Shown here: positions 4,565 through 32,000 of the stretch, one piece after another
Numbering within the stretch: position 1 is the first letter of the stretch
Layout of the letters: each line of letters opens with the position of its first letter
NCBI GenBank assembly: GCA_000830275.1
Contig: CP010424.1
Coordinates: 660,001-692,000 of the forward strand
Direction of reading: 5' to 3'
From: an archaeon GW2011_AR10
GTDB taxonomy: Archaea > Iainarchaeota > Iainarchaeia > Iainarchaeales > GW2011-AR10
DNA: 32,000 bases
The notes under the pieces: generated by a model
What the model was told of the DNA's origin: nothing
What the model saw: the letters and a program-made list of their open reading frames with translations, nothing else
Database searches by the model: none
Translations under genes and position numbers: made by a program

Positions 4565-7500
4565 ATGGGGATTTCCGAGACATTGAGCGGATTTTACGCC
4601 AAACTGGAGGACAAGTTCTATGGCATTGCGGACTTCTTTGACAGCAAAGGCATTCCGGTTAACAGCGCGATTGACTGGGTTGAGGACAAGGGCATTCCTG
4701 CTTTTCCTCTGACAATTGCGGCAATTGTTGTTGTTGTAGCGCTGCTTTACGGTTTCGTGTTTGCTGCAACACAGCAAGTAACTGTTGTTTTTGACCTGAA
4801 GGACAACAATGGAAACGCGTTAAGCCAGGTTAGGGTTAGCGCGGTTAATTCGGCAGGCAACAATGTTCCCTTAGGCAAAACTTCCTTTAAGGACGGGGAA
4901 GACGTAACACTTGCTGGAGTGCCTGTTGGCGGCACAATAAAGTTTTCCTCTCAAAAGGAAGGTTACATTGATGGAAAGTTTTCACTGCAGGTTTCAGGCA
5001 CTGAAAACCTTGCATTGCTGCGCATGAAAAAGGATGTGCAGACAATCGTGGGGCAAATAAGCCTTGTTGACACTGAAACAGGGGACCCTGTTGGAGAGGC
5101 ACAAGTTATTGCAACCTTAAGCGACAAATCAACTGTTGAATGCAATGCCGGGGAGAGCATTGGGGCTTATGAGTGCGTTGGAGTGCTCGAGGGTGACAGC
5201 GCAAAAGTTGATGTTAGGACAAGCAACTTTGAGGACAGCTCCTTCACTGTTTCTTTCTTCGAGGGAAGCGTCAGCGAGTTTGAACTGCAGCCAAAGGCTT
5301 CCGCTGCAGAAGGAAAAAGCAGCCTAATTATCAGGGTTGTGGATTCTGCAACAGAGCAGAGAGTGCAGGGCGCTACAATCAGAATATTTGACGCTGATGA
5401 TGAGGGCTTAATCAGTGAGGTAACTGACGAGGATGGGGAGTACATTGAAAGGGTTGACAAGGGGTTATCCTTAAGAGTGGTTGTTTCAAGGGACGGTTAC
5501 ATAAAGTATGATTCCGGCGCTGAAGGAATCGAGAGGACAATGCGGGATGACGAGGAGCTGTGGCTTGTCAGCATGGTGGAAGGCGGGGCAACTGTTACTG
5601 TTAGGGTAAGGGATGCTGGCGGAGCGCCACTAACAGGGGTTGTTGTTTCATTGTTCAACAGCGAGGCGGAACTGCTGGATGAAGAGAAAACATTGTTTGC
5701 CGGGGAAGTTGATTTTTCTGACTTGAATGCGGAAGCAACTTATTTTGTTACGGCTTTCCTTGACAGGTATGTTCCTGCAAGAGAAATCGTGAGGCCGCTG
5801 CAAAGCAAGGAACTTGACATAGAGCTGGAGCGATTAACGCAGTCAAATTCCTCCAATCTCAGGGTTTTTGTTGTTGATGAACGTAACAGTGCGGTAAACA
5901 ATGCGTTCCTTAACTTCTTTGAATTAGAGGACGGGAAGAAAACCCCTTCAGGAATACCGCAGCAGAAAAGTGATGTAACTGGAAAAGCAACTGTGCCTGT
6001 GTCAGTAAACATTTCAATGCTTGTTGAAGCGGTTAAGGGAGCGCAGCGCGGCGAAGCCGAGGTTGAAATCAAGCAGCAGGGCCTCAATGAGGCGCTTGTA
6101 ACTGTTCGCAAGGAGCTTGGCCTAGTGACCTTTGCTCTGCTGGATGAAGACAAGGAACCAGTTCAGGGAGGGCATTTAACAATTAAAAGCGGTGCAGGGG
6201 AAGAGCTGTTCAGGGCAACTCTTTCAGGGCAGAATGAAGTAACAGTTGATGTCGGGGAAAACGATTACGTGAAGATTGACTTCCTCGGCACTGACGGCAA
6301 AACACACGCGGAAGAAATTTATGTTAAGGAACAATCAAGGGTTGAAGTAATAATTGGCGGAAAGGGTTCTGCTAGTCTTTCCCCCACGCTGGAGTTTTTG
6401 GGGGTTTTCAGTGCAAGCGGTGCAGAGGTTGAGGGAATAAAGCGCGGGCAAGATTATTTCCTAAAGTTTCAGGTTGTTTTTCCTGAGGGCAAAGGAAATT
6501 ATGGCATGCACGTGAGGGTTGGGGATGACTCGGTTAAGTTTGCTGACTCGCAGGATGTCGGCATAATTGGTTTGAGTGCAACTGGTGCACAGGCTTTTTA
6601 TGGAAGAACTTTCTCTCCTTTCCCGGAACCGGGCTTTGAGGGGGTTGACATGCAGAACGAGGGAAACCCGGGAGGATACAACAAGTTTGTTGAGCTTTCC
6701 TTCACTGAAGGTGGAACAAAAATCGTCAAAGTGAGGGTTAAGGCAAAGGAAACAGCAACTGATTCAAGCTTTGATGTTAAGTTCAGGGCATGGAGTGAAG
6801 CAGGCAGAAGCTTTTATCGCGCACCAGTTGATTCAGTGCTTGAAACAGCAGCGTTTTCAAGCGAAAAAGGAACCTTGTACGCTGAAACATTGAAGGAAAG
6901 CGTGAGGATTTTCCAGACTGATTCGAGCTGCGAAGACGACTTGTGTGCTGGCTTCAAGTTCATCAGGAGCAATGACTCTGAGTTCGCGCCTGAAGACTTC
7001 AAGGCAGTGGTTGGAGAGGTTTACGCGCTTGAAGTGGAGCTTAACCCGAGCAAGGAAATTGACGCAACAATCAGGGCGGTCACTTCGCGAAGCAACCCGA
7101 AAATTTTCTGGCAAGGATATGGAATTGACAACTTCATTGACTTTCCTGACAACAACAAGCAGGAAACCTCCATTGAAGTGAAAGGAATTACTGCAATGCC
7201 GGGGCAGGCAGTCAAGACAAGGCTTTTCTTTAAGACGGTTGAGCTGGAAACCGCTTCAATCACGCTGCAGGTTGTAACAGCAGATGATGTTTTGAACGAG
7301 TCCTTCTTTTTCGATATTTTCCTTGAAAGGGACATGGAGTTCTCAATCCAGCCTGATGAGGTAACTTTGGGAAAGGACTTCAGCATCCTGTTAAAGGAGG
7401 ATACTGGAAAAGGGATTGAGAACGCAACGATTAAGCTGAAGGACAAGGACGGAAAGCACATTGAAACAATTATCGGGGATGGTTCCCTTGGAAAAGGGCT

Positions 7501-10500
7501 TGATGGAAAATACGATGTAAAAAACTCTTTTGATCCTGGAGTGATAAAATACGAAATCGCTGCTGAGGGATTCAAGCCTGTTGAGGGAGAACTTCAGGTG
7601 CTTAAAACCGGGGTGCTGAGGCTGCCGGAGGAAGTGCAGGTAAGCATTCCTGCTGGGCAGGAACAGGCAAGCGTTTCAGTAAACCTCGAAAATATTTCAG
7701 AGGAGTTAGTGCAGGACATACAGTTTGAGGTGAAGAGGCGCGGCAATTTCCCTGTTGGAATGGAGCTGAAGGCAGGCGGGGTTTCATCCATTCAGGCTAA
7801 CTCAACTTACAGGGTGCCGTTTACTGCAGCTTACCATGGAATTGCCGAAAGAGAGCACGGCGAGGTTGATGTTATTGCAAGGGGCAGGGTGCTTGGCAAG
7901 TACTCTGTCAGCGCTGAAACAAGAGTGAAAATTGACTTTAACCCCGAGGTTGACCCGGCAGACATTGAGTTCAGCAAGTCAAAGTTAGTGGCTTACCTTG
8001 CAAGCGGCTACGACAACAGGCAGTTCTATGACAACAGCTATAATCAGCGTTACCCTTCAGGCTATGACAGTTCCCTGTACGGCACTGGTGGCAGCTCTCC
8101 GTATGGCACTTCCCAGTACGGCACTGGTGGCACTTCCCAGTACGGCACTGATTACTCCGGCGCAGGCTACTATGACAGCACTTCATATCCTTACAGTTAC
8201 TCCAACAACGTTTACGCGCAAAGGTACTATCCTTCTTATTTGACTGGCTATGGTTCAACTGATTACTCCAACTATAATGACACTCTCCCATACCGTTACC
8301 TTAATTACTCAAGCGCGCAGCAGGTTGAGTTCACTATCAGGAACAACTCTGACCTTGACTTGGTGCTGGTGCCGGATGTTGTAGCAGAGGACAAAATTGA
8401 TGCTGAGGGAATACAGGTTGATGTGCCGCAGGTTACGCTGAAAAAAAAGGGCACAGCTGTCGGCGGGAGAAGAGAGGACGAGAAAGCAGTGAAGGTTTCC
8501 ATAACAAACAAGCTGCTTAGGAATTATCCAAACAAGCAGTCATTCAAGTTTGACCTTGTGTTCAAATCAGATGCAGTCACTAAGTCCATTCCGCTGGAGA
8601 TTTTCATTTGGAGCCCAAAGTTTGCGCTGGAAATGCAGCGCAATGTTGAGCTGTGGCTTTCACAGGAAACTCCAACGTCGAGGGCAATTGCTCAGGTTCC
8701 ATTGTTTGTGAGGAACGTTGGTTTGGCGCCTGTTGAAAACATTGTGTTCAGGGCTTCGAGCGCGAGCCTTCGCGGCAATGTCAATGTCAGAGTAATTCCT
8801 GCTGTGCCTGTTCCATTCCTTGACAAGGGGCAGGCAATAACTCCGCCGCCAGCGCTTGTGGCTGAAGCAATTAGAACAGAGAAGACAACCCTGCTGGATG
8901 TGAAGCAGATTGACGTGTTTGGAACCATTGACGGAAGGCAGTACGAGTTCGGGCCAATTTTTGTGACAACCCACATTTCTAGGCCGGAGTGCTTGGTTGT
9001 TGTGCCTAACTCGCTTGAATTCCTAAGCGAAAAGGAAACAGGGGCAATAACAAAGGAATTGAAGGTTAAAAACACTTGCGCTGAAGAGGTAAGGGTTAGG
9101 CTCATTGAGCCAAGAGAGTTTGGCTCAAACAGTCTTGACTTGGCGTTTCCTGATGAAGTTGTTCCGCCGGGAAGTGATAGGCCAATTCAAATAATTTTAA
9201 CCAAGAACGAGGCGTGGAATGCGCAAACACAGGTTTTTTTGCGCGGCTTCCTTGTGAGAAGCGGCAGGTTCACTTCCTCTAACCCAATAAACGTTAACCT
9301 CAACATAGGCAAGCAGGGAGTGCAGGACAAAGTAGCTGTTGAAGAAATTTCTGTGCCGGTGTGTGGTGAGGAAGGAAAGGCAGCTGAAGAAAAGCTCGTT
9401 GCGTTTCCGAAGATTGCAACAGGCAATGACTGCAGCAACGCTTACTGTGATGCAAAACAGCTTTCAGAGTTCTTGGCTGAAAAAATCAGAAGCAGAATTG
9501 ATGAAACAAAGAGGCAGGTAACCAACTACAAATCTGACTTGCTGAATGTGCCTACTTGCGAAACGCATTCATCAGGCTACTGTTCTTTTGCTGACTTGGG
9601 GCTTTCAGGGGAGAGCTTCAGCGTTTACTTCCAGAACGACATTCTTTCACCGCAGCTACTGAAGGAAGCCCTAAGCGGGAAAGGCGCGGACCTTGCTTCT
9701 TACAGAACAGACTATGCTTCAGGCTCTGATCCGGGCAGGTTTTTGGGGCAGATTGGAAAACAGGTTTTAATCAACGGAAGGATTGAGGGGTGCGGGCGCT
9801 ATAGAATGTCTGTTAACGGAGCAGTGAAAGTGCAGGGCTCGCAGCTGCAGCCTGACCTAATGGTGATACTAATTGATGTGAACCCGGAGGGAGAAGCACT
9901 GGACAATGCAGAGGGAGCAGCAGGGGGAGCAATGACAGGAAAAGAAGTAACGGAGCAGTGCCTGCCGAAGATACAAAACATTGCGAACTTTTTGCCGCTG
10001 GATGAAGGGTTCACTCCAGCCAACAGAAAGGACACTTTGCTTGGACTGGTTGATGTCGGCGGTGAAACACCTGAGGAAAAGCAAAAGCTTGAGGGTTTGG
10101 GAAAAGAGGTTGCAACTGGAATGTTTGGGAACGAGGCAAGGTTTGTGCAGAACGCAACCACTTCCAACAGATTGAACCTGCAGATTGGCGAAACAACTGG
10201 TTACTTGGTTAAGGTTGACATTGAGAAAACAGGGGAGGGGGCAAAGAAGACAGTGAAAGCATTCATTCAGGATGCTGGAACTAATGCAGAAAAGCAGGGC
10301 AAGGTTGCGAAGGAGGCAGCACAAGCAATAATCGGCTTGAGGAACAACGCGATTGACGGATGCATTTCAGCAAACGATGATTATGCTTTGCTGAAGTCAG
10401 CTGCAGAAGTTGGGGAACTTGAGATAATGGCGTGCAAGGACAGCAAGTTAAGGATTTCAGTTGGAGAGAGCTGCTGTGATATAAGCGTGCTTGGCGACTT

Positions 10501-13115: not shown

Positions 13116-14588
13116 ATGACTGGAATAAAGGGGTTCACGCTTTTCACTGCACTTGTTGCATTCATACTGATTGTTTTATCGGTGCTGCTGGTTCAGACAA
13201 TGATTCGCACCGAGAGGAATACAACTGACATCATTTCAGACATTCAGGAGGAACAGGAAATGCAGGCAATAGCTGATTTGGCGAGAGCAGAGGCACTGCA
13301 AACATTCAATTACGGCATCAGGTTTTCGATTGAGGACTGGCTCACAAAAGACGGGGATGGAGACGGCATTCCTGATAATGCTTACCTTTTGACGCCAAGC
13401 GAGTTGGCTGGAACTGATGCAGAGTCATGGGAGAACACAAAGAAAAAGTTCGCTGAATCCAATTTTGGTGTTGGAGGCGAAGGAACCCAGTTTGCCAACA
13501 GGGCAGCAAACCATCTTTCAACGCTGCTTGCAAGCACGCCTGATGTAAGGGGCTTCCAAGTAAATCTTGACAACAACAGCCAGGCGGTGATTGTTAGTGT
13601 GCTGGAACCATTGTTTGAGGACAGCAGTGCAAGGCAGGACTTTTTTGAAGTGATTCGGTGTGATGGCACTTGGGATGGTTGCCCGATAGGAACTTTTTAT
13701 GTTAACCTTGACATTGCAAGACTGACTGATGAGCAGTACGAGAAGCTGCCGCAGATTGTCGTGAAAAAAATCACAACAAAAGGAGAGGTGGAGAGGACTT
13801 TGAGGGAGCCGATTCTTCCAAGGGGAAATTTGCAGATTTATGTGCCGATAAGAATCTTCAAGGCAATTGCTGGGGCAAGAGATGTTGCAAGGACAGGCAG
13901 CGGGTTTTACTCTGGAGCAATTGATGCAACTTTGTTGGAGGTAAAGTTGGGGGTTTGTGGAGAGAACACTTGCGTGCCGGAATACCATTCTGCTTCCGGC
14001 CCTGACATTGAAGGTTTTGCCTGCGTCGGCGACACTTACGCTGACCATCCAAAAATTTCAAGCATTCCAGTTTTGATTGACGGAACATCTTTCAACTATG
14101 ATCCAAACAATGAGGAGGAAATGAGGAGCAGGCTGATTAACGAAGTTGGCAGGCCAAGGCTCCTCAACTTCTTTGCAAATGAGCTGACGCAAAACCTGCC
14201 TAATGACTTGAGTGTCCCGGCGGTTGACTTTCGGCTTGTAACAATTCCTGCGGGAAGCGGCTATGACACAATCCAGAGAACTTCTGTTATTGTTGTAACT
14301 CCTAAGACAAGGCAGGTTGATTTCATTGGTGCGCCATCTGGAGAAGCTGTTTGCGCGAGAATTGACAGGGTTGGCGGCTTCCTTGTGTTTGAGGACACCA
14401 AGCCGGATTACATGGTGAGCGAGTTGCCAAAATATGGTTCTCTTATCCCTACTAACAGGTATGCTGTGAGGCTTTCAACTGACTCTTTTTCTGGAGAAGT
14501 TCCTGCTGTTAAAACCTGTGAAACCATTGCAACCCCAACTGGAATAGACCTGGCAGATTTTACTTACAGATGCGAGTTCAGGGGCTGA
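13116..14588 (+). CDS. large Cys-rich protein with class III (type IV pilin-like) signal peptide
   Basis: 490 aa. N-terminus MTGIKG|FTLFTALVAFILIVLSVLLV: short basic n-region, KG, then a ~20 aa hydrophobic helix with no Glu at +5 (archaeal style). TSP3-like acidic loop DGDGDGIPD at nt 13350-13379. About 11 Cys, which suggests an extracellular disulfide-bonded domain. Confidence 0.8.
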   Translation: MTGIKGFTLFTALVAFILIVLSVLLVQTMIRTERNTTDIISDIQEEQEMQAIADLARAEALQTFNYGIRFSIEDWLTKDGDGDGIPDNAYLLTPSELAGTDAESWENTKKKFAESNFGVGGEGTQFANRAANHLSTLLASTPDVRGFQVNLDNNSQAVIVSVLEPLFEDSSARQDFFEVIRCDGTWDGCPIGTFYVNLDIARLTDEQYEKLPQIVVKKITTKGEVERTLREPILPRGNLQIYVPIRIFKAIAGARDVARTGSGFYSGAIDATLLEVKLGVCGENTCVPEYHSASGPDIEGFACVGDTYADHPKISSIPVLIDGTSFNYDPNNEEEMRSRLINEVGRPRLLNFFANELTQNLPNDLSVPAVDFRLVTIPAGSGYDTIQRTSVIVVTPKTRQVDFIGAPSGEAVCARIDRVGGFLVFEDTKPDYMVSELPKYGSLIPTNRYAVRLSTDSFSGEVPAVKTCETIATPTGIDLADFTYRCEFRG

Positions 14589-22902: not shown

Positions 22903-22977
22903 TGAAAGAAAAAATGCAAGCAAAGCAAGCACGTGACATACAAGTGAAAAGAGCATAGCAGATTGAGGCTTCAGTTT

Positions 22978-23542: not shown

Positions 23543-23590
23543 TACGCTTAAACATAACAAAAAGTTATGATTAAAACCATAACCAAAAAG

Positions 23591-23628
23591 TATATTAATA
23601 TTAGATTAATTAGATTACTTATATTAAT
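23591..23628 (+). promoter_or_regulatory. composite promoter region of giant gene 3: two TATATTAAT boxes flanking a tandem ATTAGATTA repeat
   Basis: TATATTAAT (23591-23599), ATTAGATTA (23600-23608), ATTAGATTA (23609-23617), CT, TATATTAAT (23620-23628). The proximal box is 37 nt upstream of ATG 23657. GGTGA (23647-23651) is SD-like. Confidence 0.45.
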
Positions 23629-23656
23629 TTGGAAATTACCTGCGCACGGTGAATAA

Positions 23657-26600
23657 ATGGGTGTCCTAGATTCATTGAAAAACATTTATTTTGGCCTCGA
23701 GGAAAAGTACTATTCTCTGCTGGACAAAATCGATGAAAGGATCCCAATTTACAAGATAATCGACCCAATTGACAAGATTGTGCCGAGTTTTGCACTGGTT
23801 TTAATCATCGGTTTCTTGCTCCTTGTTTTGGCACTATGGTGGCTTGCAGGAATACTGCTGCCGCCGACAACCTCAACCCTGACAATTGTTGTGGTGGAAG
23901 AGGATAAAACTCCAATAGAAAATGCTGCCGTAACTTTTTCGGTTGGCGGTGAGGAAGAAAGCAGGGAGCGCACAAACGAAAACGGTGAAGCAAAGCTTGA
24001 GGGCATTGAAAAGGGAACAGAGGTGTTCGTTGAAGCCGAGAAAGAAGGCTATCAGACAAGGACAAGGAGCGTGTTCGTTTCAGAGGTTCCAAGCCAGGTT
24101 GAAGAAATCGTTTTGGAGCTGGAGGAAGCTGCATTTGAAACAAAAACAATCAGGCTTGTTGATTCTCTTGGGCAAGGCGTTCCGGCTGAGTTCACGCTTA
24201 CTTTCAGCTGCAGTGACCCTTTTGCAACTCCGCCTTCACCGGTAAACCTGCTTAGAAGCGATTTTGGGGTTGCAAGGGTTCAGGTGCCAAGCAACTGCGG
24301 AACACTGCGCGTTTCAGTAATTGATGATGCAGGCTATGAAAACATAACAAGCATTGAGGTCATTGGGAATGACTTCAGGATTGAGTTAAGTGAAGCAGTA
24401 AAGCCTGAAGGCACAATCGCGGTAAACCTGCTGGATGAAGACGGAAATCCAATTGAGGACTCAGTTGAAGTGCAGTTGTACCGCTACGATGACCTGGTTC
24501 AGAACCCGGAAATAGGGCCAATTGATTTTGGTTACAGTTCCGGCGGGCAAGCAACATTTGTTGCAACTGTGGGACAGTACGTGGTGAAGACGTTTGACTC
24601 TTCCGGAGTTTATGGGGATGAAACTTCCGCCAGGATAACGCTTTCAGCTGATGAAACCAAGACAGTTAACATCACTTTAACTGCGAATGTCATTGGGAGC
24701 ATTAAGATTCAGGTAATTGATTCTGCTTCAAGGCAGCCGGTTGACAATGCAAAGGTAACATTAAAGTATCAGAGCGATGAAAGGCAGGTGGCGCAGCTCA
24801 CAACTGACTCGGATGATGACGCAATAGTTGAGTTCTCCATTTCCAGGGACGTGGAATACAGGGTTTTGGTTGAAGCAGAAGCCTACCAGCTTGGAAAAAG
24901 GGAGAGCCTTGAAATAAGCAGTGCTGTTGTAGTGGTTGAGCTCAACAAGTGCACTCCAACAACTTGCGGAAAGCTTTTAGTGAAGGTGCTAGACCAAGAC
25001 GGGGAACCAGTGGAAAATGCTGCTGTTTCATTGTACAATGCTTCAACCAATTACCTGGCTGGCTACAGCAACAAGGTGTCTGATCTCAATGGAGTTGCAG
25101 AGTTTACTGGAGTCAGCTCCGGAAACTACTTTGCGTTTGCGTTCAAGGAAACAATTTCAGGGAGAAGCGACACAACATATTTCAGCAGTACAAGCAATGA
25201 CGATGAAGACGTTGACTTGACTGTTTCAATGGAGATTCCAAACGGGATTGTGAGGGCGCTTATTGTTGACAAGGAAGGAAGAGGAATTGCTTTTCCAATT
25301 GTTACTGTGTTTGATGCGCGCACAAACGAGGTCATTGGCTCAAGGCAGGGGGAAGCGGATGGCACCTTCGAGCTTGAAACAAAGGCTGACAAAAGGGTTT
25401 ACCTGCGCGTTAGGCAGAAGGACTCAAAGCCAAGGATGGCAGACTACTTCACTGTAGCGAGGCCTGTTGTGCCGTCAACCATTCAGGAGTTCACAATAGT
25501 AATGGAGCCGGAAATAATTGACAAGGACATCGAGGCAGAGTTTTTGGGTTTGTTCCAAGCAGGGGAAAGGGCAAAGACTCTTTCAAAAGGAGAACAGTAC
25601 ACGGCAAGATTCAGGTTGCGCGTGCCAGAGGAAAAGGATTACTCTGAAACAGGAATGCACATCAGGGTTGGAAAAGAACTCATAATGGAAAAAGACCCCA
25701 TTGTGTTGAAGGAAATAAACGCTCCAGCAGCATCAATCATCAAGGCAACAAAGTTTGACCCTGACTCAGGATTAAGCGAACAGCAATATGCTTTGACGAA
25801 TGATGACGCAAAATGGTCCAACATTGTTTGGAGCAATGAGCCGGCTGCAGGAATATATGAGGTTGAATCGGTTGTGGAAATAAAGGAAACCGCCTCAATT
25901 CGCGATGAGCTGGAAGTGCATTGGCGGGGCTGGGCTGAAAACGGAATCAGGGAAAGAAATCCTGAGGATGACTCTGTTTCAATTGAGCTTTACTCTAATA
26001 CCCACACGCAGGTGTTTGAGGTTGGCGTAACCACTTTGTGCAGTGAGGACTTCTGTTTCAGCGCAAGGATAAGGGACCAGGAAGCAGGCCTAACCGAATC
26101 TGTTTCTGATGCGTACACTGCAAGGATTGGGAACACTTACGAATTTAGGTTCATTATTACAAACAACAACCCTTCAAGGATTCACGACAACGCGGATCTT
26201 AGAATCAACAACGTTGACCAGGCAGTCAGGTTTTTGGAGTACAGCATGGTGAACGCGCAAACAGGAGAACTGCAAGGCGTAGTCAATGGTTCAGAATTTC
26301 CAAGGCTGAACGTTGGCAATTTGAGCCCAAACCAGGACATTGTTCTGACAACAGAGTTCGTAACATTGAAGCCAATCACAGGCATCATAAGCATCAGGCT
26401 TGTATCTGATGAGGCAATTGTTTTCGAGAAAAACCTTACAATCCAGATTTCTGCGCCGAAGGAAATGACTGTAACTGTTCTACCGCAGCGCTATGCTTCC
26501 GGCATAGAAACAGACATTAATGTGCTGGTCAAGGACAAGGAAACAAGGCTTGAGCTGGAGGAAGCTGTTGTAAGGCTCAAAGACAGAAGGGATAACACCA

Positions 26601-29600
26601 TTGAAGCAACTCAAACAGGCAAAGACGGCTTTGCTTTCCTCATTGTTCCAGCGCAGATGCCGGGAGAGGTTCTAACGCTTGAAGTAAGAAAGCCTGGCTA
26701 CAACACGAAGGAAGTTGAGCTGAAAATTGAGTCAGGGGTGCTTGAGTTAAGCCCTGACCAGCTAGGCGTGCAGTTGAATGTAAAGGACAAGCCCGCATCA
26801 GATGAAACTTTTAGCGCAAAGAATGTTACGCCTTTCCCGTTGAAGATAACTGCAATTGAGCTGAATGGCAGCTTCAAGAATTTGCTGGATGAGAAAGCAA
26901 TAAATGAGTGGCTTGAAGCATCTTACATTGACCTTGTTATAAAGTCAGGCGAGCGCAGGGAAATGACTCTCAAAACTTTCCTCAGCCAAGATGCATTGGT
27001 TTTAGAGGACAGGGAGAGAGTTGAAGGAAACCTGGACATTGAGGTGAGCAATTTCGGCCACAAGTGGACTTTCAACATTCCTGTTGTGGTTTCAATAGGC
27101 ATTGGGGGAGAGGTAGATGACCCGAGCTGCTTGATTTTGAACAGAAAGGAATGGAAAACAAGTACTGAAGGGCAGCCTGTTGTCATTGAATTGATACTTG
27201 AAAACAACTGCACTATTGGCGGGAAGCCAGTAGAGCTGAGGAACCTTGAGGCAAAAGTTGACTGGCAGGGCAACCAGATCGGAATTTATGATGTTACAAT
27301 AGGCGATGACAGGACAGAGTTGAGAAGCGGTTACTTCAAGACACTGCTCACAAGGCTTGAAAGAGAAGCATCAGTCAGCAGCATTTTAACTTTCACTCCA
27401 TTCGGCGGCATTAACGGCATTGCATCATCTGAAATAGTGGTTCAGGCAAAGAACCCGTTGGAGGGAGCAGACCAAATCCTTTCAAACAAAATCAGCAGCG
27501 AAATAACAGTGATTAATTTGCAGGACTGCATCAGCGTTGACAAGGAGCTGGTGATAATGAACACTGGCGAGAGCGCTCCGTTCAATGTAAGCACAGTCAA
27601 CTGTGGTTCCCCTATTGACTTTGAGCTCGTGTCAGAGCTTGAGTTAAGCACAACCGAGTTCACTCTTGCTGACAACGCGAGCCAGACAATAGAAATACTT
27701 TCAGGAGATGCAATTACAGGCCAATACCCTGTTTTCATTAAGCCAAAGTTTGCTTCAGAGCAGCAGGAGCAGTTGCTTAGAACGGTTAGGGCAAGAATTC
27801 TTGACCCGGGAAACTGCATTGAGTTAAGCAGGTTCGAATTCGATGTCTATGATAACCCCAACGTTACTTTTGACGGATTTGACACAGCTGAGCTAATCAA
27901 CAACTGCCACGAGAAACGCGTTCAAGTAAGGGTTGACATGCGCGACTGGCTTGAGGCACTGAAGGGCGGCTTCAAGTGGGGCCTGCTTACTTTCGGGTTA
28001 AGCTTGTTGGGCAACATTGGCGAGAAAGGCAGTATTTCTGGAGCACTTGGGTTTGGGGGAAGTGATTCTGGGCAGCTTGCTGCTTCACAGCCTTATTTGC
28101 CGGGCGATCAACCACCATGGTATGGCGGCGCTGCAACTCCGCCTGCAGGAACTCCTCCTGGAGCAGAGTACAGGCCCTTTAATTCAATACAGTACAGGGG
28201 AAACACTTACTGGAAAGACCAGACAAATGGCCAGTGGTATGATGCTCAAGGCAAACCTATTCCAAATCAATACTGGGGACAGTTAGAGCAAATAAGGCAG
28301 CAGGGCGACTTAGAGGAACAAAATGAAGAGCAGACAGGCTTGATTGAATTCTCGCCGGTTGCATTTGCTTCATTGTATGATTCAACTGAGTGGAACGAGA
28401 TTCCAAGCATTACCGGCCTACAGTTTTTTGGAGGCAACTCTGGTTTGGGCGGAGTTGGTTTCCTGCTTGGCGGGGTTTCAGGAATAATGAATGCAGTAAT
28501 TGGAAAAGGAAACCCGATAATGCAGGGTGCAAAAGGCTGGCTGATTGGAACTTTGGTTGAGTACTTTCGCCAGGAGAAAGAGGTAAGCTTTTTGACAACG
28601 CAGCCTGATGTGGAGGTTAAATCGGTTTTGCTTCACCCGAAAACAAGAGAGGCATTGCTTGGAGGCGGCGAACCAGACACTGATGTTGAATTGACGCAGG
28701 AAGAAAAGCCAGTGGGGGAGGCAAGAATTGATTCAGGGATTCCTGTAACTCCGACAACCGCAACAAGCAACATTGATATTGTTCTGGCAAGAGACCCATT
28801 CAAGCCAGACCTCAAGGTTGAAAAGAGGGGCCTTGTGTTTACAAACATAAGCGGCTTCACCACAACAGAGGTTGAACCTGAGTACAAGATTCTCAGGGTT
28901 TTAGGGTTAAGGCACAAGTATATTGACAAGGTTTATGACAAGGACGACTTTGATGTTGATGAAGAGAAGGGCTTCTTTAATTTCACTGGTAGCAGCGAAA
29001 AGATTAACCCTGAGTCAGGGGAATTGGATGAGGAAGACCCGGAAACATTAAGAGAGCTTTACCACCTTGAGTTCAATTCAGTGCCGCCTGAAACTTATTT
29101 GCCGCCTTCGCCTGCGCTGCTTAACTGCCAGGATGGCCTTAGAACTGGCAGGACAGGAAAGGAAGCACTGCCAAAAGTTAAGTTTGACTGGACATGGAAC
29201 GCGATTGATGAAGATGAGTGTGACATAACAAATGATGACTCGGTTTACTGTGATGCAACGCAGTTCAGCATTGAGGTGCTGCAGAAAGCCAACAGGATAG
29301 CTGAGTTCCTTGAAACGAATGCAGGCAGGCTTAAGTGCCCGAGCCCGTTTGACCTGCTGCAGAACACTGCAATAATTCCCACCTATGATATTGGCGTTGC
29401 AAGCGTTGCTTTGAACAAGAACAACAACAATGTTACAATTCAGGCTGAAATACAGAACACGAACCCTGCACAAATCGAAACAGAGGTAAAGATGGAAGTG
29501 TTTGAGGCTGAAAGCAACGAGTTGAAGGCAGTGCCATGCAAGCAAACCATTAGTGTTTTGAGCAAGGAACAGGTTGCATGCGAGGTAACAGGCCTTGATG

Positions 29601-30991
29601 ACGGAGTTTATAGAACGGTTGTAAGCATCACTCCGCAAATTGACTGCCAAGACTGCGAGGACAAAACTGCAAGCAATTCTCTTGGAATTGGCTTTGTGAT
29701 TGGGGAAACAGGGTTGGAGGAATGCGAGCCATTTTCCACTTCGAGGCTGCCTGAGTTTTTGTCTGCAAGCGGAATTACTGGTGGAGAAGCAGATGAAATC
29801 CTTGAAGCAGTGGAGTTCCAGGCCCAGCTGATTGATGACAGGTATAGCTCTGACTTCCAGAGGGACTTCGACAACTTCTCAAAGCTTGAGAGCTTCTTTA
29901 ATGCACCGCAGTACTACACTGATGAGGAAAGGGGTTTAGGCATTTACTTTAGTGAACCGGAGCTATTCAAGTTTGAGCCAATGTTTGGAACAGCAAACCC
30001 GGAAGGATACAAGCTGCCGGGAGCGGGAATCTATAACGTGCAGATTGACATAACTTATGATGATGAAACATGGCAGCTCTTCGATGACAAGGGAGCGAAT
30101 GCAAAGATTAGGGTGAAGCTGAGCAAGGCCGATACTCCAAGGCCTGACTCGCCTTTTTACAGCCTGCCGTTTGACGGGACAATTGGAGGCGATGGAAGAG
30201 TGGGCTATGGCCTTAACTATAATGGAGAGGTTGTCTTGGTTAACTCTGACATCGAGGGGGTTAGAACAGTTGAATTGCCTGGCTCAACTCCAGTGAGAGA
30301 ATTGACTGTTGAGGTTTCAAACAGCTTCAAGAGGCTTAACACTGACAACAGGGGCGTTGTGCTACAGGTGCTTGGAGGCTCTGAACCAAAGCTCGTGTAT
30401 TCGCCGAGCAAGGCCACTCCAGTTATGCTGAGGCTGGTGAACAACCAGGACGAGGCATGGGCGTTTTACAGCGTTGAGGTTTCAGGCGGAGCACAAGAAG
30501 TTGGGCCAAGCATGAACAGATGGGTTGGCGTTGGCTTCAACTGCAAGGGCTTTGATGACAGGTATATGACTGAGTACTTCTTTGAGGCTGACCAGCATGG
30601 TCTTCAGACAAGCTGTGCAAGGCTTGAGCCAAACAGGATTAAGACAAGCTATGGCTTTGAGTTCTGTGATGCCGTGAAGTTCGGCGACATGTACTTGAAG
30701 TCAGTGTTCTTTACTCCACAAGAGCAGCAGAGCCTCATGACTTTGACTGGAAGAAACGATGACTCAGAGCTGATAACTTCAAGCACTGCCGGAACAATTG
30801 TTTCCTTGGATGGAATAGGAATTGCTGGAACAATTAATTCAGTTGAGGACATATTTGACTTGGTTAAGGAAGAGCTTGTGTGCGTTTCAACAAGCGAGGG
30901 AAAAACAGAGTTCTGGTGGAACACAAAGAAAGTGCTTGAAACAATTCAGAGCCAGGAAGACAGGGCAATCAACCAGTGCATTCTTGAGTAA
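23657..30991 (+). CDS. giant membrane-anchored surface protein, paralog 3 (2444 aa)
   Basis: Uninterrupted 7.3 kb ORF. Parts in order: N-terminal motif (23657-23791), TM (23792-23860), six CarboxypepD_reg-like repeats (about 23870-25500), GMHIRVG (25652-25672), a Gly-rich hydrophobic / P-Y-Q-W-rich / Gly-rich hydrophobic block (about 27960-28570), YCDATQFS (29246-29269), LIDDRYSSDFQRDF (about 29822-29875), C-terminal VCVSTSEGKTEFWWN. Confidence 0.9.
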   Translation: MGVLDSLKNIYFGLEEKYYSLLDKIDERIPIYKIIDPIDKIVPSFALVLIIGFLLLVLALWWLAGILLPPTTSTLTIVVVEEDKTPIENAAVTFSVGGEEESRERTNENGEAKLEGIEKGTEVFVEAEKEGYQTRTRSVFVSEVPSQVEEIVLELEEAAFETKTIRLVDSLGQGVPAEFTLTFSCSDPFATPPSPVNLLRSDFGVARVQVPSNCGTLRVSVIDDAGYENITSIEVIGNDFRIELSEAVKPEGTIAVNLLDEDGNPIEDSVEVQLYRYDDLVQNPEIGPIDFGYSSGGQATFVATVGQYVVKTFDSSGVYGDETSARITLSADETKTVNITLTANVIGSIKIQVIDSASRQPVDNAKVTLKYQSDERQVAQLTTDSDDDAIVEFSISRDVEYRVLVEAEAYQLGKRESLEISSAVVVVELNKCTPTTCGKLLVKVLDQDGEPVENAAVSLYNASTNYLAGYSNKVSDLNGVAEFTGVSSGNYFAFAFKETISGRSDTTYFSSTSNDDEDVDLTVSMEIPNGIVRALIVDKEGRGIAFPIVTVFDARTNEVIGSRQGEADGTFELETKADKRVYLRVRQKDSKPRMADYFTVARPVVPSTIQEFTIVMEPEIIDKDIEAEFLGLFQAGERAKTLSKGEQYTARFRLRVPEEKDYSETGMHIRVGKELIMEKDPIVLKEINAPAASIIKATKFDPDSGLSEQQYALTNDDAKWSNIVWSNEPAAGIYEVESVVEIKETASIRDELEVHWRGWAENGIRERNPEDDSVSIELYSNTHTQVFEVGVTTLCSEDFCFSARIRDQEAGLTESVSDAYTARIGNTYEFRFIITNNNPSRIHDNADLRINNVDQAVRFLEYSMVNAQTGELQGVVNGSEFPRLNVGNLSPNQDIVLTTEFVTLKPITGIISIRLVSDEAIVFEKNLTIQISAPKEMTVTVLPQRYASGIETDINVLVKDKETRLELEEAVVRLKDRRDNTIEATQTGKDGFAFLIVPAQMPGEVLTLEVRKPGYNTKEVELKIESGVLELSPDQLGVQLNVKDKPASDETFSAKNVTPFPLKITAIELNGSFKNLLDEKAINEWLEASYIDLVIKSGERREMTLKTFLSQDALVLEDRERVEGNLDIEVSNFGHKWTFNIPVVVSIGIGGEVDDPSCLILNRKEWKTSTEGQPVVIELILENNCTIGGKPVELRNLEAKVDWQGNQIGIYDVTIGDDRTELRSGYFKTLLTRLEREASVSSILTFTPFGGINGIASSEIVVQAKNPLEGADQILSNKISSEITVINLQDCISVDKELVIMNTGESAPFNVSTVNCGSPIDFELVSELELSTTEFTLADNASQTIEILSGDAITGQYPVFIKPKFASEQQEQLLRTVRARILDPGNCIELSRFEFDVYDNPNVTFDGFDTAELINNCHEKRVQVRVDMRDWLEALKGGFKWGLLTFGLSLLGNIGEKGSISGALGFGGSDSGQLAASQPYLPGDQPPWYGGAATPPAGTPPGAEYRPFNSIQYRGNTYWKDQTNGQWYDAQGKPIPNQYWGQLEQIRQQGDLEEQNEEQTGLIEFSPVAFASLYDSTEWNEIPSITGLQFFGGNSGLGGVGFLLGGVSGIMNAVIGKGNPIMQGAKGWLIGTLVEYFRQEKEVSFLTTQPDVEVKSVLLHPKTREALLGGGEPDTDVELTQEEKPVGEARIDSGIPVTPTTATSNIDIVLARDPFKPDLKVEKRGLVFTNISGFTTTEVEPEYKILRVLGLRHKYIDKVYDKDDFDVDEEKGFFNFTGSSEKINPESGELDEEDPETLRELYHLEFNSVPPETYLPPSPALLNCQDGLRTGRTGKEALPKVKFDWTWNAIDEDECDITNDDSVYCDATQFSIEVLQKANRIAEFLETNAGRLKCPSPFDLLQNTAIIPTYDIGVASVALNKNNNNVTIQAEIQNTNPAQIETEVKMEVFEAESNELKAVPCKQTISVLSKEQVACEVTGLDDGVYRTVVSITPQIDCQDCEDKTASNSLGIGFVIGETGLEECEPFSTSRLPEFLSASGITGGEADEILEAVEFQAQLIDDRYSSDFQRDFDNFSKLESFFNAPQYYTDEERGLGIYFSEPELFKFEPMFGTANPEGYKLPGAGIYNVQIDITYDDETWQLFDDKGANAKIRVKLSKADTPRPDSPFYSLPFDGTIGGDGRVGYGLNYNGEVVLVNSDIEGVRTVELPGSTPVRELTVEVSNSFKRLNTDNRGVVLQVLGGSEPKLVYSPSKATPVMLRLVNNQDEAWAFYSVEVSGGAQEVGPSMNRWVGVGFNCKGFDDRYMTEYFFEADQHGLQTSCARLEPNRIKTSYGFEFCDAVKFGDMYLKSVFFTPQEQQSLMTLTGRNDDSELITSSTAGTIVSLDGIGIAGTINSVEDIFDLVKEELVCVSTSEGKTEFWWNTKKVLETIQSQEDRAINQCILE

Positions 30992-31018
30992 TGAAAATGA
31001 TGGGGCAAGGAAAGAGAA

Positions 31019-32000
31019 ATGGGATTAAAGGAAATTTATTATTCGCTGGAGGACAAATATTATGCTTTTCTTGACCGTCTCAACGAGTCTATTCCTGTTT
31101 ACAAAGTAATTGATCCCATTGACAGGATTGTACCGAGCTTTGCCTTGTTTTCAGCGATTTTTCTCCTAATACTCATTGCAGTCTTATACATAATCTTTTC
31201 TTCTTTTTTGCCAGTGGCAAAAGGAAGCCTTTCGGTTGTTGTAAAAAGCCAGGATGGAGAGCCGCTGCAGAATGCAACAGTACTTGTTTCAGGCCAAGCC
31301 CTTGAGTTCCCTGTTGAGGAGAAAACCAACAAGAGTGGAAGGGCACTGGTAGAGGAATTAGAGCAGGGAAAAGAGTACTCGGTTGAAGTGGAAAAACGAA
31401 ATTACCGGAAGGCAACTGAAACTGTTGTATTGGATGAAGCAGAAAAACTCCTTATGGTTGAATTGGAGCGTGAAACACCTCCACCAAGCCCAATAACCAT
31501 TGAATTTACCGATTCCAGCGGCAAAAAAATGGATGGCCGAACAATTCAGGTGCATTTTTCCTGCACCAACAGCCAGGTTGCTTTGCTTCAGGCTGATTTC
31601 TCTGTTACCAGCGGAGAAATAACCATTACCCCGCCTGAAGATTGCGGGCTGCTGAGCGTGAGGGCAACTGCTTCTGGTTTCAAGCCCCTGGAGGCAATAA
31701 TTGACAGGGGCGGGAAAGTGCTGCGGTTTGAAGCAGAGGAAACCGCTAAGGGAAGCATTCTGTTTGTTGTAAGGGACTCTGAAACCGACAGGCTGTTGAA
31801 TGGCATAAAGGTTTCGGTTTTTGATTTGCAGGATTTCCCGGTTGGAGTTCCGCGTTTTACTGACAGAGGCGAAGCAGTTTTTTCAATTGAACCAGGCTCA
31901 TACAAAGCAATAATCGAAGATGAAAGCTCGGATTACGGCAGCGAGGAAGTAAGCTTTTCAGTGCAGGAAAGGGAATCATCCACAAGGGAAGTGGAGCTCT
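31019..32000 (+). CDS. giant surface protein paralog 4, 5' part only (open to the window end)
   Basis: This ORF is not in the supplied track because it has no stop in the window. I translated it by hand from ATG 31019 and found 327 codons with no stop. The protein begins MGLKEIYYSLEDKYYAFLDRLNESIPVYKVIDPIDRIVPSFALFSAIFLLILIAVLYIIF, which is the N-terminal motif plus TM and is closest to paralog 3. CarboxypepD_reg-like repeats follow, including the conserved Cys pair (FSCTNS...PEDCGLLSV). It starts 27 nt after the giant-3 stop. Confidence 0.85.
   Translation, partial: MGLKEIYYSLEDKYYAFLDRLNESIPVYKVIDPIDRIVPSFALFSAIFLLILIAVLYIIFSSFLPVAKGSLSVVVKSQDGEPLQNATVLVSGQALEFPVEEKTNKSGRALVEELEQGKEYSVEVEKRNYRKATETVVLDEAEKLLMVELERETPPPSPITIEFTDSSGKKMDGRTIQVHFSCTNSQVALLQADFSVTSGEITITPPEDCGLLSVRATASGFKPLEAIIDRGGKVLRFEAEETAKGSILFVVRDSETDRLLNGIKVSVFDLQDFPVGVPRFTDRGEAVFSIEPGSYKAIIEDESSDYGSEEVSFSVQERESSTREVEL

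What the first reader, a model, noticed from the sequence alone, without database searches (positions are those of the whole stretch)
4565..32000. Tandem array of four collinear giant (2.4-2.8 kaa) membrane-anchored proteins, a candidate uncharacterised cell-surface system
Four same-strand ORFs (4565-13069, 14893-22902, 23657-30991, 31019 to beyond 32000) occupy about 24.8 kb of the 32 kb window. They share the same order of landmarks:
- an N-terminal motif plus a single TM
- 6-7 CarboxypepD_reg-like beta-sandwich repeats, the second of which carries a conserved Cys pair (RCSEK...SDCGTLHV, FSCSDP...SNCGTLRV, FSCTNS...EDCGLLSV)
- G(M/V)H(V/L/I)RVG followed by W(Y/R)(R/G)(A/W) ... (FRAWSE, WYRAWGK, HWRGWAE)
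- one isolated extra repeat (EGFKPVEGEL, KPGFRPVEKEI, KPGYNTKEVEL)
- a Tyr-rich low-complexity segment
- C..YCDA(T/K)Q(L/F)S
- LI.D.YS.DF..DF (paralogs 2 and 3)
- a terminal VC......(F/Y)(Y/W)(W/F)N

Protein identity between paralogs is low by eye, and I saw no long nucleotide identity. These therefore look like old, maintained paralogs, not a recent duplication or an assembly artefact.

I recognise no enzymatic or named adhesin family for the roughly 1500 aa beyond the Ig-like repeats. In a small-genome episymbiotic archaeon, such a locus would be a prime candidate for the host-attachment or cell-cell interface apparatus. That is inference.
Basis: partly seen in the sequence, partly recalled or inferred. 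Interest (0 to 1): 0.85.

Follow-up and report, generated by a model that had tools for sequence, protein, structure and literature searches.

The report
Conserved giant surface-protein locus of Iainarchaeota
Four very large, anciently diverged sister proteins, probably anchored in the membrane and projecting from the surface of a tiny groundwater archaeon, belong to a gene cluster found across its whole phylum (Iainarchaeota) that nobody has characterised and whose function is still only inferred.

Summary
Four same-strand ORFs (A 4541/4565-13069, B 14893-22902, C 23657-30991, D 31019 onward; D is 2249 aa in the parent contig) are real, intact paralogs. BLASTP gives C-D E 1e-160, B-C 1e-121 and A-B 1e-34. 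There is no long nucleotide identity.

The shared architecture is:
- a conserved ~40-aa N-terminal motif and one TM;
- six prealbumin-like sandwich domains;
- about seven more beta-sandwich domains (AF2 pLDDT 86);
- a linker specific to each paralog;
- the YCDA(T/K)Q motif and a helix;
- a CARDB-like sandwich and a ~430-aa head with no Pfam, PDB or BFVD match.

A shares only the N-terminal ~1150 aa and the YCDAKQ motif.

The family is large: 805 clusters at 50% identity, mostly 2.2-3.2 kaa. It sits in Iainarchaeota (Diapherotrites) genomes. The order A, pilin-like gene, B, small membrane gene, C, D, then five small membrane genes recurs there.

Best reading: a phylum-wide, multi-component cell-surface fibre or envelope apparatus. 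No enzyme domain was detected. Host attachment is not evidenced.

It is a new variant of a known kind (giant multi-Ig surface proteins). Interest is moderate to high.

The parts
4541..13069 (+). Giant paralog A (2842 aa; probable start at ATG 4565). It has the N-motif, a TM, 4-5 prealbumin-like repeats, the central beta-sandwich module, a Gly/Tyr/Ser low-complexity segment (aa 1151-1261), YCDAKQ (aa 1635) and a unique ~1200-aa distal region. That region contains Gly-rich hydrophobic segments and an Asp-rich DxDxDG-like stretch.
   Evidence: close relative P0159 (33% over 1181 aa)
7991..8323 (+). Tyr/Gly/Ser-rich low-complexity linker of A; it contains short nucleotide tandem repeats at 8071-8150
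9443..9460 (+). Codons of the YCDAKQ motif in A
13116..14588 (+). m1: 490-aa protein with a type IV pilin-like N-terminus (KG/FTLFTALV followed by a hydrophobic helix). It is conserved between A-like and B-like genes in another metagenome (38% identity, E 1e-55).
   Evidence: (ComGF/ComGE N-terminal hits below cutoff)
14893..22902 (+). Giant paralog B (2669 aa). It has the N-motif, a TM, 6 sandwich repeats, the central module, a 165-aa Gly/Tyr/Ser low-complexity segment, extra Cys-paired domains, and the C-terminal module (YCDATQLS at aa 1987, then the head).
18778..19275 (+). Tyr/Gly/Ser-rich low-complexity linker of B (aa 1296-1461); 48-nt tandem repeat at 18903-19003
20851..20868 (+). Codons of the YCDATQ motif in B. 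This is the site of the scaffold N-gaps in two other assemblies.
22963..23448 (+). m2: small membrane protein with four hydrophobic segments (~156 aa from ATG 22978). Conserved directly upstream of the C-like gene in 5 other loci.
23657..30991 (+). Giant paralog C (2444 aa), used as the reference for the domain map
23657..23866 (+). C aa 1-70: conserved cytoplasmic N-motif (KxxYxxLEEKYYxxLDxxxxxIPxYKxIDPIDKxVPSF) and the single strongly hydrophobic anchor. The motif is the most conserved region among orthologs (mean 54% identity).
23867..25486 (+). C aa 71-610: six prealbumin/CarboxypepD_reg-like beta-sandwich repeats. The second carries the invariant Cys185/Cys214 pair.
25487..27916 (+). C aa 611-1420: central module of about seven further beta-sandwich domains, including the isolated prealbumin-like repeat near aa 935-1066. 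Conserved Cys pairs at 795/800, 1158/1185 and 1291/1316.
   Evidence: AF2 pLDDT 86; Foldseek
27917..28816 (+). C aa 1421-1720: paralog-specific linker, the least conserved region (19% identity). It holds Gly-rich hydrophobic segments (aa ~1440-1460 and 1597-1615) and a Pro/Gln/Trp-rich stretch.
28817..29356 (+). C aa 1721-1900: neck, containing the near-invariant YCDATQF (aa 1864-1870) that leads into a ~25-residue helix
29357..29716 (+). C aa 1901-2020: CARDB-like beta-sandwich
29717..30988 (+). C aa 2021-2444: distal head, with a small helical subdomain and a large beta-rich domain. Conserved motifs: LIxDxYSxDFxxDF, PFDGxxG...RxGYG and VC...FWWNP. No Pfam, PDB or BFVD match.
31019..32000 (+). 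Giant paralog D (first 327 aa in the window; full length 2249 aa at L005:17363-24112). It has a ~40-residue hydrophobic putative helical hairpin at aa 1480-1520, between the central module and the head.

Best explanation
The window holds most of a gene cluster conserved across the DPANN phylum Iainarchaeota (Diapherotrites).

Components:
- Four giant, anciently diverged paralogs; some relatives carry a fifth, D-like copy.
- A type IV pilin-like protein (m1).
- Six small polytopic membrane proteins: m2, and s1-s5 just beyond the window.

Predicted shape of each giant protein:
- It is inserted N-in by a conserved cytoplasmic ~40-aa motif plus one hydrophobic helix.
- It exposes a disulfide-stabilised chain of about 13-14 beta-sandwich domains.
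- Next comes a paralog-specific linker: a Tyr/Gly/Ser low-complexity segment in A and B, Gly-rich hydrophobic segments in C, and a hydrophobic hairpin in D.
- A YCDATQ-capped helix follows, and then a conserved distal head.

Most likely function: the paralogs are non-redundant subunits of a fibrous cell-surface layer or spike apparatus. The layer shapes the envelope and mediates contact with particles or other cells through the conserved head.

What is shown: the paralogy, the domain architecture, the conservation of the family and of the gene order, and the absence of any recognisable enzyme domain. What is inferred: the surface location, the assembly of paralogs into one structure, and the adhesive or structural role.
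For: - Paralogy and shared architecture.
- All-beta stalk: Pfam CarboxypepD_reg hits, six detectable repeats in 82 of 103 family members, and an AF2 model of the central module with pLDDT 86 that matches only multi-Ig/MG/ASH arrays.
- Topology: one strong N-terminal hydrophobic helix in 101 of 103 members. There are 5-6 Lys/Arg before it and 0-2 in the 25 residues after it.
- Twelve or more Cys positions are 95-100% conserved, four of them as close pairs within single sandwich domains.
- One relative has a LysM domain in its linker.
- Family size: 805 clusters at E<=1e-3. Of the 99 full-length members among the 150 best hits, 98 also carry the central module.
- Distribution: 43 genome loci, nearly all Iainarchaeum or Diapherotrites, including the single-cell genome of Ca. 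Iainarchaeum andersonii.
- Conserved order B|C|D(|D') in more than 15 loci, and A, m1, B in L051.
- m2 lies upstream of the C-like gene in 5 loci. s1-s4 abut the last giant gene in the same order in at least 14 loci (s5 in 5), with E down to 1e-39.
- Conservation among orthologs is even across stalk and head (37-44%), and the cytoplasmic N-motif is highest at 54%.
- The ORFs are intact in three independent assemblies.
Against: - There is no expression, localisation or imaging data.
- The head fold has no structural analogue, so ligand binding is a guess.
- Synteny in these genomes continues into housekeeping genes (PolB, MetAP). Adjacency of s1-s5 may therefore partly reflect general genome collinearity and not functional linkage.
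- The hydrophobic N-terminal segment could be a cleaved extended signal peptide. Small residues follow it in B and D, and cleavage there would release the protein.
- If the mid-protein hydrophobic segment of D-type paralogs spans the membrane once instead of forming a hairpin, the head would be cytoplasmic.
- N-glycosylation sequons are not enriched.
Confidence: 0.55

Rival explanations
1. Host-attachment or cell-cell interface apparatus of an episymbiont. In this view the long stalks reach a host cell. The heads bind a host envelope component. Hydrophobic linker segments of C- and D-type paralogs insert into the partner membrane to help form a contact or bridge.
For: - The lineage is DPANN, and all cultivated DPANN are ectosymbionts (PMC11291902 abstract).
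- Giant surface proteins are implicated in other DPANN, for example SPEARE (PMC6642349).
- 46 of 103 family members carry strongly hydrophobic, Gly-rich segments between stalk and head.
- One relative has a LysM (glycan-binding) insert.
- A pilin-like gene is co-conserved in the locus.
Against: - Iainarchaeota is the DPANN lineage reported to have enough anabolic capacity for a free-living life.
- No host is known.
- Head and stalk are evenly conserved, with no variable tip. Orthologs keep fixed positions in the locus, unlike fast-evolving host-specificity factors.
- The hydrophobic segments could equally anchor the protein in its own membrane.
Confidence: 0.25
2. The paralogs are the main cell-wall (S-layer-like) proteins of Iainarchaeota. 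Their beta-sandwich arrays would lie in plane to form the lattice, anchored by the N-terminal helix.
For: - The locus is present across the phylum and takes about 30 kb of genomes of about 1.2 Mb.
- The proteins are acidic.
- Ig-like arrays build several archaeal S-layers (own knowledge).
- Sequence is evenly conserved along the protein.
Against: - The proteins are 250-310 kDa, against the usual 40-200 kDa.
- Each has 26-28 Cys, whereas S-layer proteins contain few sulfur-containing residues.
- Sequons are not enriched.
- A lattice built from four or five different giant subunits would be unusual.
- No S-layer Pfam domain was found.
Confidence: 0.12
3. A protease-trapping or covalent-capture surface protein related to alpha-2-macroglobulin or thioester proteins. 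Cys and Gln of the invariant YCDATQ motif would form an internal thioester that reacts with a target.
For: - The central module matches MG-domain arrays of A2M, C3, C5 and CD109 (E about 1e-13).
- There are weak Pfam bMG3 and MG4 hits.
- Cys and Gln of YCDATQ are 99-100% conserved and sit four residues apart at a helix N-terminus.
Against: - There is no CxEQ motif and no thioester (TED) domain by Pfam or Foldseek.
- The Foldseek matches have TM-scores of 0.12-0.17 and rmsd above 40 A, so they reflect per-domain similarity only.
- The C-terminal module has eight conserved Cys. That even number is consistent with all of them forming disulfides.
Confidence: 0.04
4. A polymorphic-toxin or contact-dependent competition locus. 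A conserved stalk would deliver variable C-terminal effectors, and the small downstream membrane proteins would be immunity factors.
For: - A has a distal region unrelated to that of B, C and D, after a shared motif.
- Small genes follow the array.
Against: - The B/C/D head is conserved across 805 clusters, not polymorphic.
- s1-s4 are themselves conserved, in fixed order, across deeply diverged genomes.
- No toxin domain was detected.
Confidence: 0.03

Closest known systems
SPEARE proteins of Nanohaloarchaeota (PMC6642349)
   Same: - Very large DPANN proteins (thousands of residues), predicted to be mostly extracytoplasmic with a single membrane anchor.
- Several copies per genome, taking a few percent of a ~1 Mb genome.
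- Proposed to act at the cell surface.
   Different: - SPEARE proteins have serine-protease, laminin-G, BC-toxin-like and cytoplasmic restriction-endonuclease domains, and usually a C-terminal anchor.
- None of these was found here.
- Here the anchor is N-terminal, the stalk is made of prealbumin/Ig-like sandwiches, and the head is a different, unmatched domain.
Giant repetitive bacterial surface adhesins (Bap/SiiE/LapA type; SdrD, SpaA and PrgB Ig-like stalks)
   Same: A long chain of beta-sandwich domains carries a distal non-repeat region. Pfam and Foldseek similarity is at the single-domain level (SdrD_B, SpaA, Big_1, PrgB).
   Different: - The repeats here are old and divergent, with no near-identical tandem copies.
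- The proteins are archaeal and carry an N-terminal signal-anchor with a conserved cytoplasmic motif.
- No RTX or T1SS signal, LPXTG motif or sortase signal was detected by Pfam.
- The genes occur as a fixed set of four or five orthologous paralogs.
Alpha-2-macroglobulin / complement MG-domain proteins
   Same: Arrays of MG-like sandwiches, with best Foldseek E about 1e-13. Bacterial A2Ms are also membrane-anchored at the N-terminus (own knowledge).
   Different: There is no thioester domain, no CxEQ motif and no bait region. Global TM-scores are only 0.12-0.17.
Extended signal peptide regions of very large secreted bacterial proteins (ESPR, YSIRK)
   Same: A conserved N-terminal extension precedes the hydrophobic core in unusually long exported proteins. 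Here it is the best-conserved part of the protein.
   Different: There is no sequence similarity and no Pfam hit. The hydrophobic segment here is 23-28 residues long, which looks more like an anchor. Cleavage was not tested. The comparison rests on my own knowledge.
Archaeal S-layer proteins (e.g. SLP_Mh of Ca. Micrarchaeum harzensis, 101 kDa)
   Same: An acidic, beta-rich envelope protein of a DPANN archaeon with a possible N-terminal anchor.
   Different: These proteins are 2.5-3 times larger and Cys-rich. They have no S-layer domain hit and no sequon enrichment, and they come as multiple paralogs.

Membership tests
CarboxypepD_reg (PF13620) domain-containing proteins | Pfam PF13620 match above the gathering score (32.3 bits) | tested here: met
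   A scores 68 bits, B 115.8, C 88.5 and the D fragment 53.5. This names only the N-terminal repeats, not the whole protein.
Alpha-2-macroglobulin / thioester-containing proteins | CxEQ thioester motif inside a helical thioester (TED) domain | tested here: not met
   No C.EQ in A-D. No TED hit by Pfam or Foldseek.
Alpha-2-macroglobulin / thioester-containing proteins | Array of MG domains in the A2M global arrangement | tested here: inconclusive
   Foldseek E about 1e-13, but TMq 0.12-0.17 and rmsd above 40 A. bMG3 and MG4 Pfam hits are mostly below cutoff.
SPEARE proteins (Nanohaloarchaeota) | Serine protease, laminin-G adhesion domain and cytoplasmic type III restriction-enzyme domain | tested here: not met
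   None of these domains appears in the Pfam or NCBIfam scans. The definition is taken from PMC6642349.
Archaeal S-layer proteins | 40-200 kDa, few Cys or Met, heavy N-glycosylation, S-layer domain | tested here: not met
   247-313 kDa, 26-28 Cys, sequon counts at expectation, and no S-layer Pfam hit. The criteria are as quoted.
Archaeal S-layer proteins | Forms the abundant 2-D lattice on the cell | not testable with these tools
   This needs proteomics or cryo-ET.
RTX / T1SS giant adhesins | Gly/Asp nonapeptide Ca-binding repeats and a C-terminal T1SS signal | tested here: not met
   No HemolysinCabind or related Pfam hit. A has one Asp-rich DxDxDG-like stretch (aa ~2610-2640) only.
Polymorphic toxin systems | Hypervariable C-terminal effector with a cognate, variable immunity gene | tested here: not met
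   The C-terminal module is conserved in 805 clusters. The downstream small genes are conserved in fixed order.
Type IV pilins (for m1, 13116-14588) | Class III signal peptide: short charged leader, Gly at -1, then a ~20-residue hydrophobic helix | tested here: inconclusive
   The sequence reads MTGIKG/FTLFTALVAFILIVLSVLLV. NCBIfam ComGF and ComGE N-terminal hits score 20 and 15 bits, far below their cutoffs. There is no Pfam hit. The L051 ortholog keeps the motif G/FNLFTALISFLL.

The most novel reading that the evidence does not exclude
The locus encodes a previously unrecognised multi-component archaeal envelope machine specific to Iainarchaeota.

- Four or five distinct giant subunits would assemble, through the YCDATQ-helix neck and a head of new fold, into heteromeric surface fibres.
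- A new kind of conserved cytoplasmic N-terminal motif would target and organise them.
- A dedicated set of six small membrane proteins and a pilin-like protein would also take part.
- The hydrophobic linker hairpins of the C- and D-type subunits would insert into a partner cell's membrane to establish cell-cell contact or exchange.
Probability: 0.15. Interest if true: 0.85.

Novelty: new variant of a known kind. Interest (0 to 1): 0.6.

Why it matters
Iainarchaeota are uncultivated, and it is unsettled whether they live freely or on hosts. This locus takes about 3% of a genome of about 1.2 Mb and is conserved in gene content and order across the phylum. Public records annotate its genes only as 'hypothetical' or 'carboxypeptidase regulatory-like' proteins.

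It is therefore the most obvious candidate for what the cell surface of these organisms is made of and how they touch their surroundings.

It gives concrete targets for metaproteomics, antibodies and cryo-ET:
- a 430-aa head with no known fold;
- an invariant YCDATQ motif;
- a conserved cytoplasmic N-terminal motif that may be an archaeal counterpart of the extended signal regions of giant bacterial exoproteins.

The family profile could also serve as a marker for Iainarchaeota contigs in metagenomes.

Tried and rejected
- Frameshift or chimera artefact: rejected. B is split in L001 and L003 only by runs of N at the YCDATQ codons, and it is intact in L002, L004 and L005.
- Recent duplication: rejected. 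Self-blastn finds only 71 nt at 76% identity.
- Known family for the distal regions: nothing found. I ran Pfam on whole proteins and on 250-500-aa tiles at E up to 5, NCBIfam, PDB by sequence and by profile, Foldseek against PDB and BFVD. Only the CARDB-like sandwich matched.
- A's distal part as a divergent copy of the B/C/D head: rejected. hhalign aligns only the 23-column YCDAxQ-helix stretch.
- Lytic transglycosylase at the end of A, which I suspected by eye: no Pfam support.
- Thioester idea for YCDATQ: kept only as a 4% rival.
- Paralogy among the small membrane proteins s1-s4: BLAST E 1e-7 to 1e-2 without composition correction, so not conclusive.
- u2 and u3 as paralogs: not significant.
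- The word-indexed protein search was insensitive, giving 3-7 hits. The exhaustive HMMER search was needed to see the family.
- Technical dead ends: genome scan with alignment A2, AF2 with locus-derived rows and a 60-sequence alignment. All were worked around.
- Literature: searches found no paper describing this family. Youssef et al. 2015 on Ca. Iainarchaeum andersonii is not held.

Full report
**1. Observation**

The window contains four long same-strand ORFs:
- A, 4541-13069 (2842 aa).
- B, 14893-22902 (2669 aa).
- C, 23657-30991 (2444 aa).
- D, from 31019 to the window end.

The window is identical to part of a 249.8-kb JGI metagenome contig, 3300025308 Ga0209211_10000053. The same locus occurs at 99.96-99.99% nucleotide identity in four other public assemblies: NCBI GCA_013332025.1, two ENA ANAN16 samples and one further ENA sample. 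In the JGI contig D is 2249 aa.

BLASTP confirms paralogy far beyond chance:

| Pair | Identity and span | E-value |
|---|---|---|
| C-D | 30% over 1520 aa | 1e-160 |
| B-C | 29% over 1354 aa | 1e-121 |
| B-D | not recorded | 4e-100 |
| A-B | 22% over 1190 aa | 1e-34 |

B, C and D share a second block at the C-terminus (C-D 30% over 447 aa, E 3e-50). The only nucleotide similarity inside the window is 71 nt at 76% in the N-motif coding region of A and B, so these are old paralogs.

In two of the five assemblies gene B is called as two genes. The DNA shows runs of N exactly at the YYCDATQ codons, which is a scaffolding gap and not a frameshift. B is intact in the other three assemblies.

**2. 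Anatomy**

*N-terminus.* About 40 conserved residues (consensus KxxYxxLE[DE]KYYxxLDxLxxxIPVYKxIDPIDKxVPSF) come first, followed by one strongly hydrophobic 23-28-residue segment. There are 5-6 Lys/Arg before it and 0-2 in the 25 residues after it. This predicts N-in, with the bulk of the protein outside.

*N-terminal repeats.* Pfam finds only CarboxypepD_reg and related prealbumin/Ig-like families, all within aa ~70-600. An iterated repeat profile detects five such repeats there plus one isolated repeat near aa 935-1075 in B, C and D. The Cys-pair domain at aa ~160-235 is a sixth, divergent one. A has four plus one.

*Central module.* AlphaFold2 on C aa 601-1440, with 27 sequences, gave mean pLDDT 86 and an all-beta chain of about seven sandwich domains. 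Foldseek matches only other multi-sandwich arrays. These are ciliary central-apparatus ASH-domain proteins, the MG arrays of A2M, C3, C5 and CD109, and the PrgB Ig-like domains. TM-scores are 0.12-0.21 and rmsd 30-47 A, so the resemblance is domain by domain, not in architecture.

*Linker.* The linker is specific to each paralog:
- A and B have a Gly/Tyr/Ser low-complexity segment, with short nucleotide tandem repeats inside it. B-like orthologs in other genomes also have this segment.
- C has Gly-rich hydrophobic and Pro/Gln/Trp-rich segments.
- D has a ~40-residue hydrophobic stretch that looks like a helical hairpin.
- 46 of 103 full-length family members have such hydrophobic segments at this position.

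*C-terminal module of B, C and D.* This was modelled for C aa 1700-2444 (pLDDT 71.6). It has four parts:
- a disordered lead-in;
- the near-invariant YCDATQF motif capping a ~25-residue helix;
- a sandwich that matches CARDB and the Ig-like domains of GH2 enzymes (E about 1e-4);
- a ~430-aa head made of a small helical subdomain and a large beta-rich domain.

The head has no match in PDB or BFVD by fold, and none in PDB by sequence profile.

*Protein A.* Its last ~1200 aa share only the YCDAKQ-helix stretch with the others (hhalign). They have no Pfam or PDB match.

**3. The family**

The word-indexed search found only 3-7 relatives. An exhaustive HMMER search with the C-terminal-module profile, against 1.84 billion cluster representatives, found the following:
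- 805 proteins at E<=1e-3;
- 681 at E<=1e-10;
- 506 at E<=1e-30.

Most are 2200-3250 aa long and carry the module at the extreme C-terminus. The 150 best hits include 99 full-length members; 98 of these also have the central module and 71 match the narrow N-motif profile. With the four window proteins added, 101 of 103 have an N-terminal hydrophobic helix.

Family-wide conservation is striking. In C numbering, these Cys positions are 95-100% conserved:
- close pairs at 185/214, 795/800, 1158/1185 and 1291/1316;
- single positions 1824, 1855, 1865, 1894, 2023, 2296, 2409 and 2441.

Also conserved at 84-100% are YCDATQF (in 137 of 156 retrieved proteins), LxxDxxxxDFxxDF, PxxGxxG...RxGYG and FxWNP. 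Regularly spaced, near-invariant Cys pairs in a mesophilic organism argue for an extracytoplasmic, disulfide-bonded protein. That is an inference.

Source names are 'hypothetical protein', 'carboxypeptidase regulatory-like domain-containing protein' and, once, 'LysM ...'. That member has a Pfam LysM domain in its linker.

**4. Distribution and gene order**

A pattern scan of one genome per GTDB species gave 43 loci. Their record titles break down as:
- 18 are titled Candidatus Iainarchaeum archaeon or Candidatus Diapherotrites archaeon.
- One is the single-cell genome of Ca. Iainarchaeum andersonii.
- 23 are titled only 'archaeon' or 'uncultured archaeon'.
- One 8.8-kb contig sits in a 'Falkowbacteria' bin and is probably mis-binned.

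Scanning all loci with profiles of the three modules, and labelling each giant ORF by its best window paralog, shows that tandem same-strand arrays are the rule and that the order is fixed:
- B-like | C-like | D-like in L010, L012, L013 and L024.
- C-like | D-like | second D-like in L009, L014, L020, L023, L025 and L037.

Each ortholog scores two to three times higher against its own type than against the other types. The paralogs therefore predate the divergence of these genomes.

In a separate metagenome (L051) the order is an A-like gene (33% over 1181 aa), an m1-like gene (38%, E 1e-55), a NUDIX gene and then a B-like gene.

The small genes are co-conserved as well:
- m2 (window 22963-23448, four hydrophobic segments) lies directly upstream of the C-like gene in five loci.
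- The five small polytopic membrane proteins that follow D in the parent contig (s1-s5, L005:24144-26127) abut the last giant gene in other loci. s1-s4 are found in the same order in at least 14 loci, and s5 in 5 (phmmer E 1e-10 to 1e-39).
- None of them has a Pfam match.

One caution applies. Synteny continues downstream into a coiled-coil protein, a ~500-aa unknown protein, PolB and MetAP. General genome collinearity therefore contributes to this adjacency.

**5. Conservation profile**

| Region of C orthologs (11 genomes) | Mean identity to C |
|---|---|
| Cytoplasmic N-motif | 54% |
| Hydrophobic anchor | 23% |
| N-terminal repeats | 37% |
| Central module | 44% |
| Linker | 19% |
| Neck | 39% |
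| CARDB-like domain | 30% |
| Head | 43% |

There is no hypervariable tip, and the cytoplasmic N-motif is the best-conserved part. This fits non-redundant structural subunits, or binding of a conserved ligand, with an important cytoplasmic or membrane interaction at the N-terminus. It does not fit fast-evolving host-specificity adhesins or polymorphic toxins.

**6. Interpretation**

Shown:
- a large, uncharacterised family of giant proteins, apparently confined to Iainarchaeota;
- a fixed modular architecture;
- a conserved multi-gene locus.

Inferred:
- The proteins are anchored N-in and project a chain of 13-14 sandwich domains with a distal head. If extended, the chain would be some tens of nanometres long (my estimate, at about 3.5-4 nm per domain).
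- The four or five paralog types work together as a surface fibre or envelope apparatus, possibly with m1, m2 and s1-s5 as base or assembly factors.

I put this at 0.55. The lineage is DPANN, but it is the one DPANN lineage for which autonomy has been argued. An S-layer role (0.12) conflicts with the size, Cys content and multiplicity of the proteins. The A2M/thioester and polymorphic-toxin readings fail defining tests.

**7. Comparison and novelty**

The kind of thing is known: giant, multi-Ig-domain cell-surface proteins in small-genome prokaryotes (SPEARE, bacterial giant adhesins). Membership in any named family fails, apart from the generic CarboxypepD_reg repeats.

New here are:
- the head;
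- the YCDAxQ neck;
- the conserved N-terminal motif;
- the fixed set of orthologous paralogs;
- the co-conserved small membrane and pilin-like genes.

I found no paper describing the family. I rate it a new variant of a known kind, with interest 0.6.

Noticed in passing
L005:24144-26127 (just downstream of the window; L005 position 1 = window 13657): Five small polytopic membrane proteins (125, 104, 90, 104 and ~130 aa) follow giant gene D. s1-s4 recur in the same order, directly after the last giant gene, in at least 14 other Iainarchaeota loci, and s5 in 5. None has a Pfam match.
   Followed up: partly
window 22963-23448 (+): A small protein with four hydrophobic segments (m2) lies between B and C. 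It is conserved upstream of the C-like gene in five other loci and belongs to no known family.
   Followed up: partly
window 13116-14588 (+): A 490-aa protein with a type IV pilin-like N-terminus lies between A and B. An ortholog (38% identity) holds the same position in another metagenome (L051:9533-11221).
   Followed up: partly
L001:~7226-7228 and L003:~7181-7223 (equivalent to window ~20835-20885): Two of five public assemblies have scaffold N-gaps exactly at the YYCDATQ codons of gene B, so gene callers split B in two. The conserved motif may confuse assemblers, because near-identical 18-mers occur in A, B and C.
   Followed up: yes
window 8071-8150 and 18903-19003: Short nucleotide tandem repeats (periods 24/39 and 48) lie inside the Tyr/Gly/Ser low-complexity linkers of A and B. 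This suggests the segments grow by repeat expansion.
   Followed up: no
window 4030-4362 (-): A pterin-4a-carbinolamine dehydratase gene (Pfam PF01329, E 7e-30) lies on the opposite strand just upstream of A. It is the only gene in the window with a confident enzymatic annotation.
   Followed up: no
window 488-1933 and 1938-3443 (+): Two ~500-aa proteins with Sec-type signal peptides and no Pfam match. They share a short C...GKFRL(P/T)..C motif but are not significantly similar overall (E 0.08).
   Followed up: partly
P0152 aa 1718-1776 (family member from a Ca. Iainarchaeum MAG): One family member carries a LysM domain inserted in the variable linker. This hints that the linker is extracellular and can carry glycan-binding modules.
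   Followed up: partly
L042 (JAFCBY010000066.1, 8.8 kb): A contig carrying fragmented copies of the family is binned as Candidatus Falkowbacteria (CPR bacterium). This is most likely a binning error, since all other hits are archaeal.
   Followed up: no
L007:12741-14001: In one relative, toxin-antitoxin genes (ParE-like, VapB/PIN) are inserted between the C-like and D-like giant genes.
   Followed up: no
L027:10034-15201, L017, L040, L029 (downstream of s5): Synteny beyond the locus is conserved across deeply diverged Iainarchaeota. It runs through a coiled-coil protein on the opposite strand, a ~500-aa protein with no Pfam match, family-B DNA polymerase and methionine aminopeptidase.
   Followed up: partly
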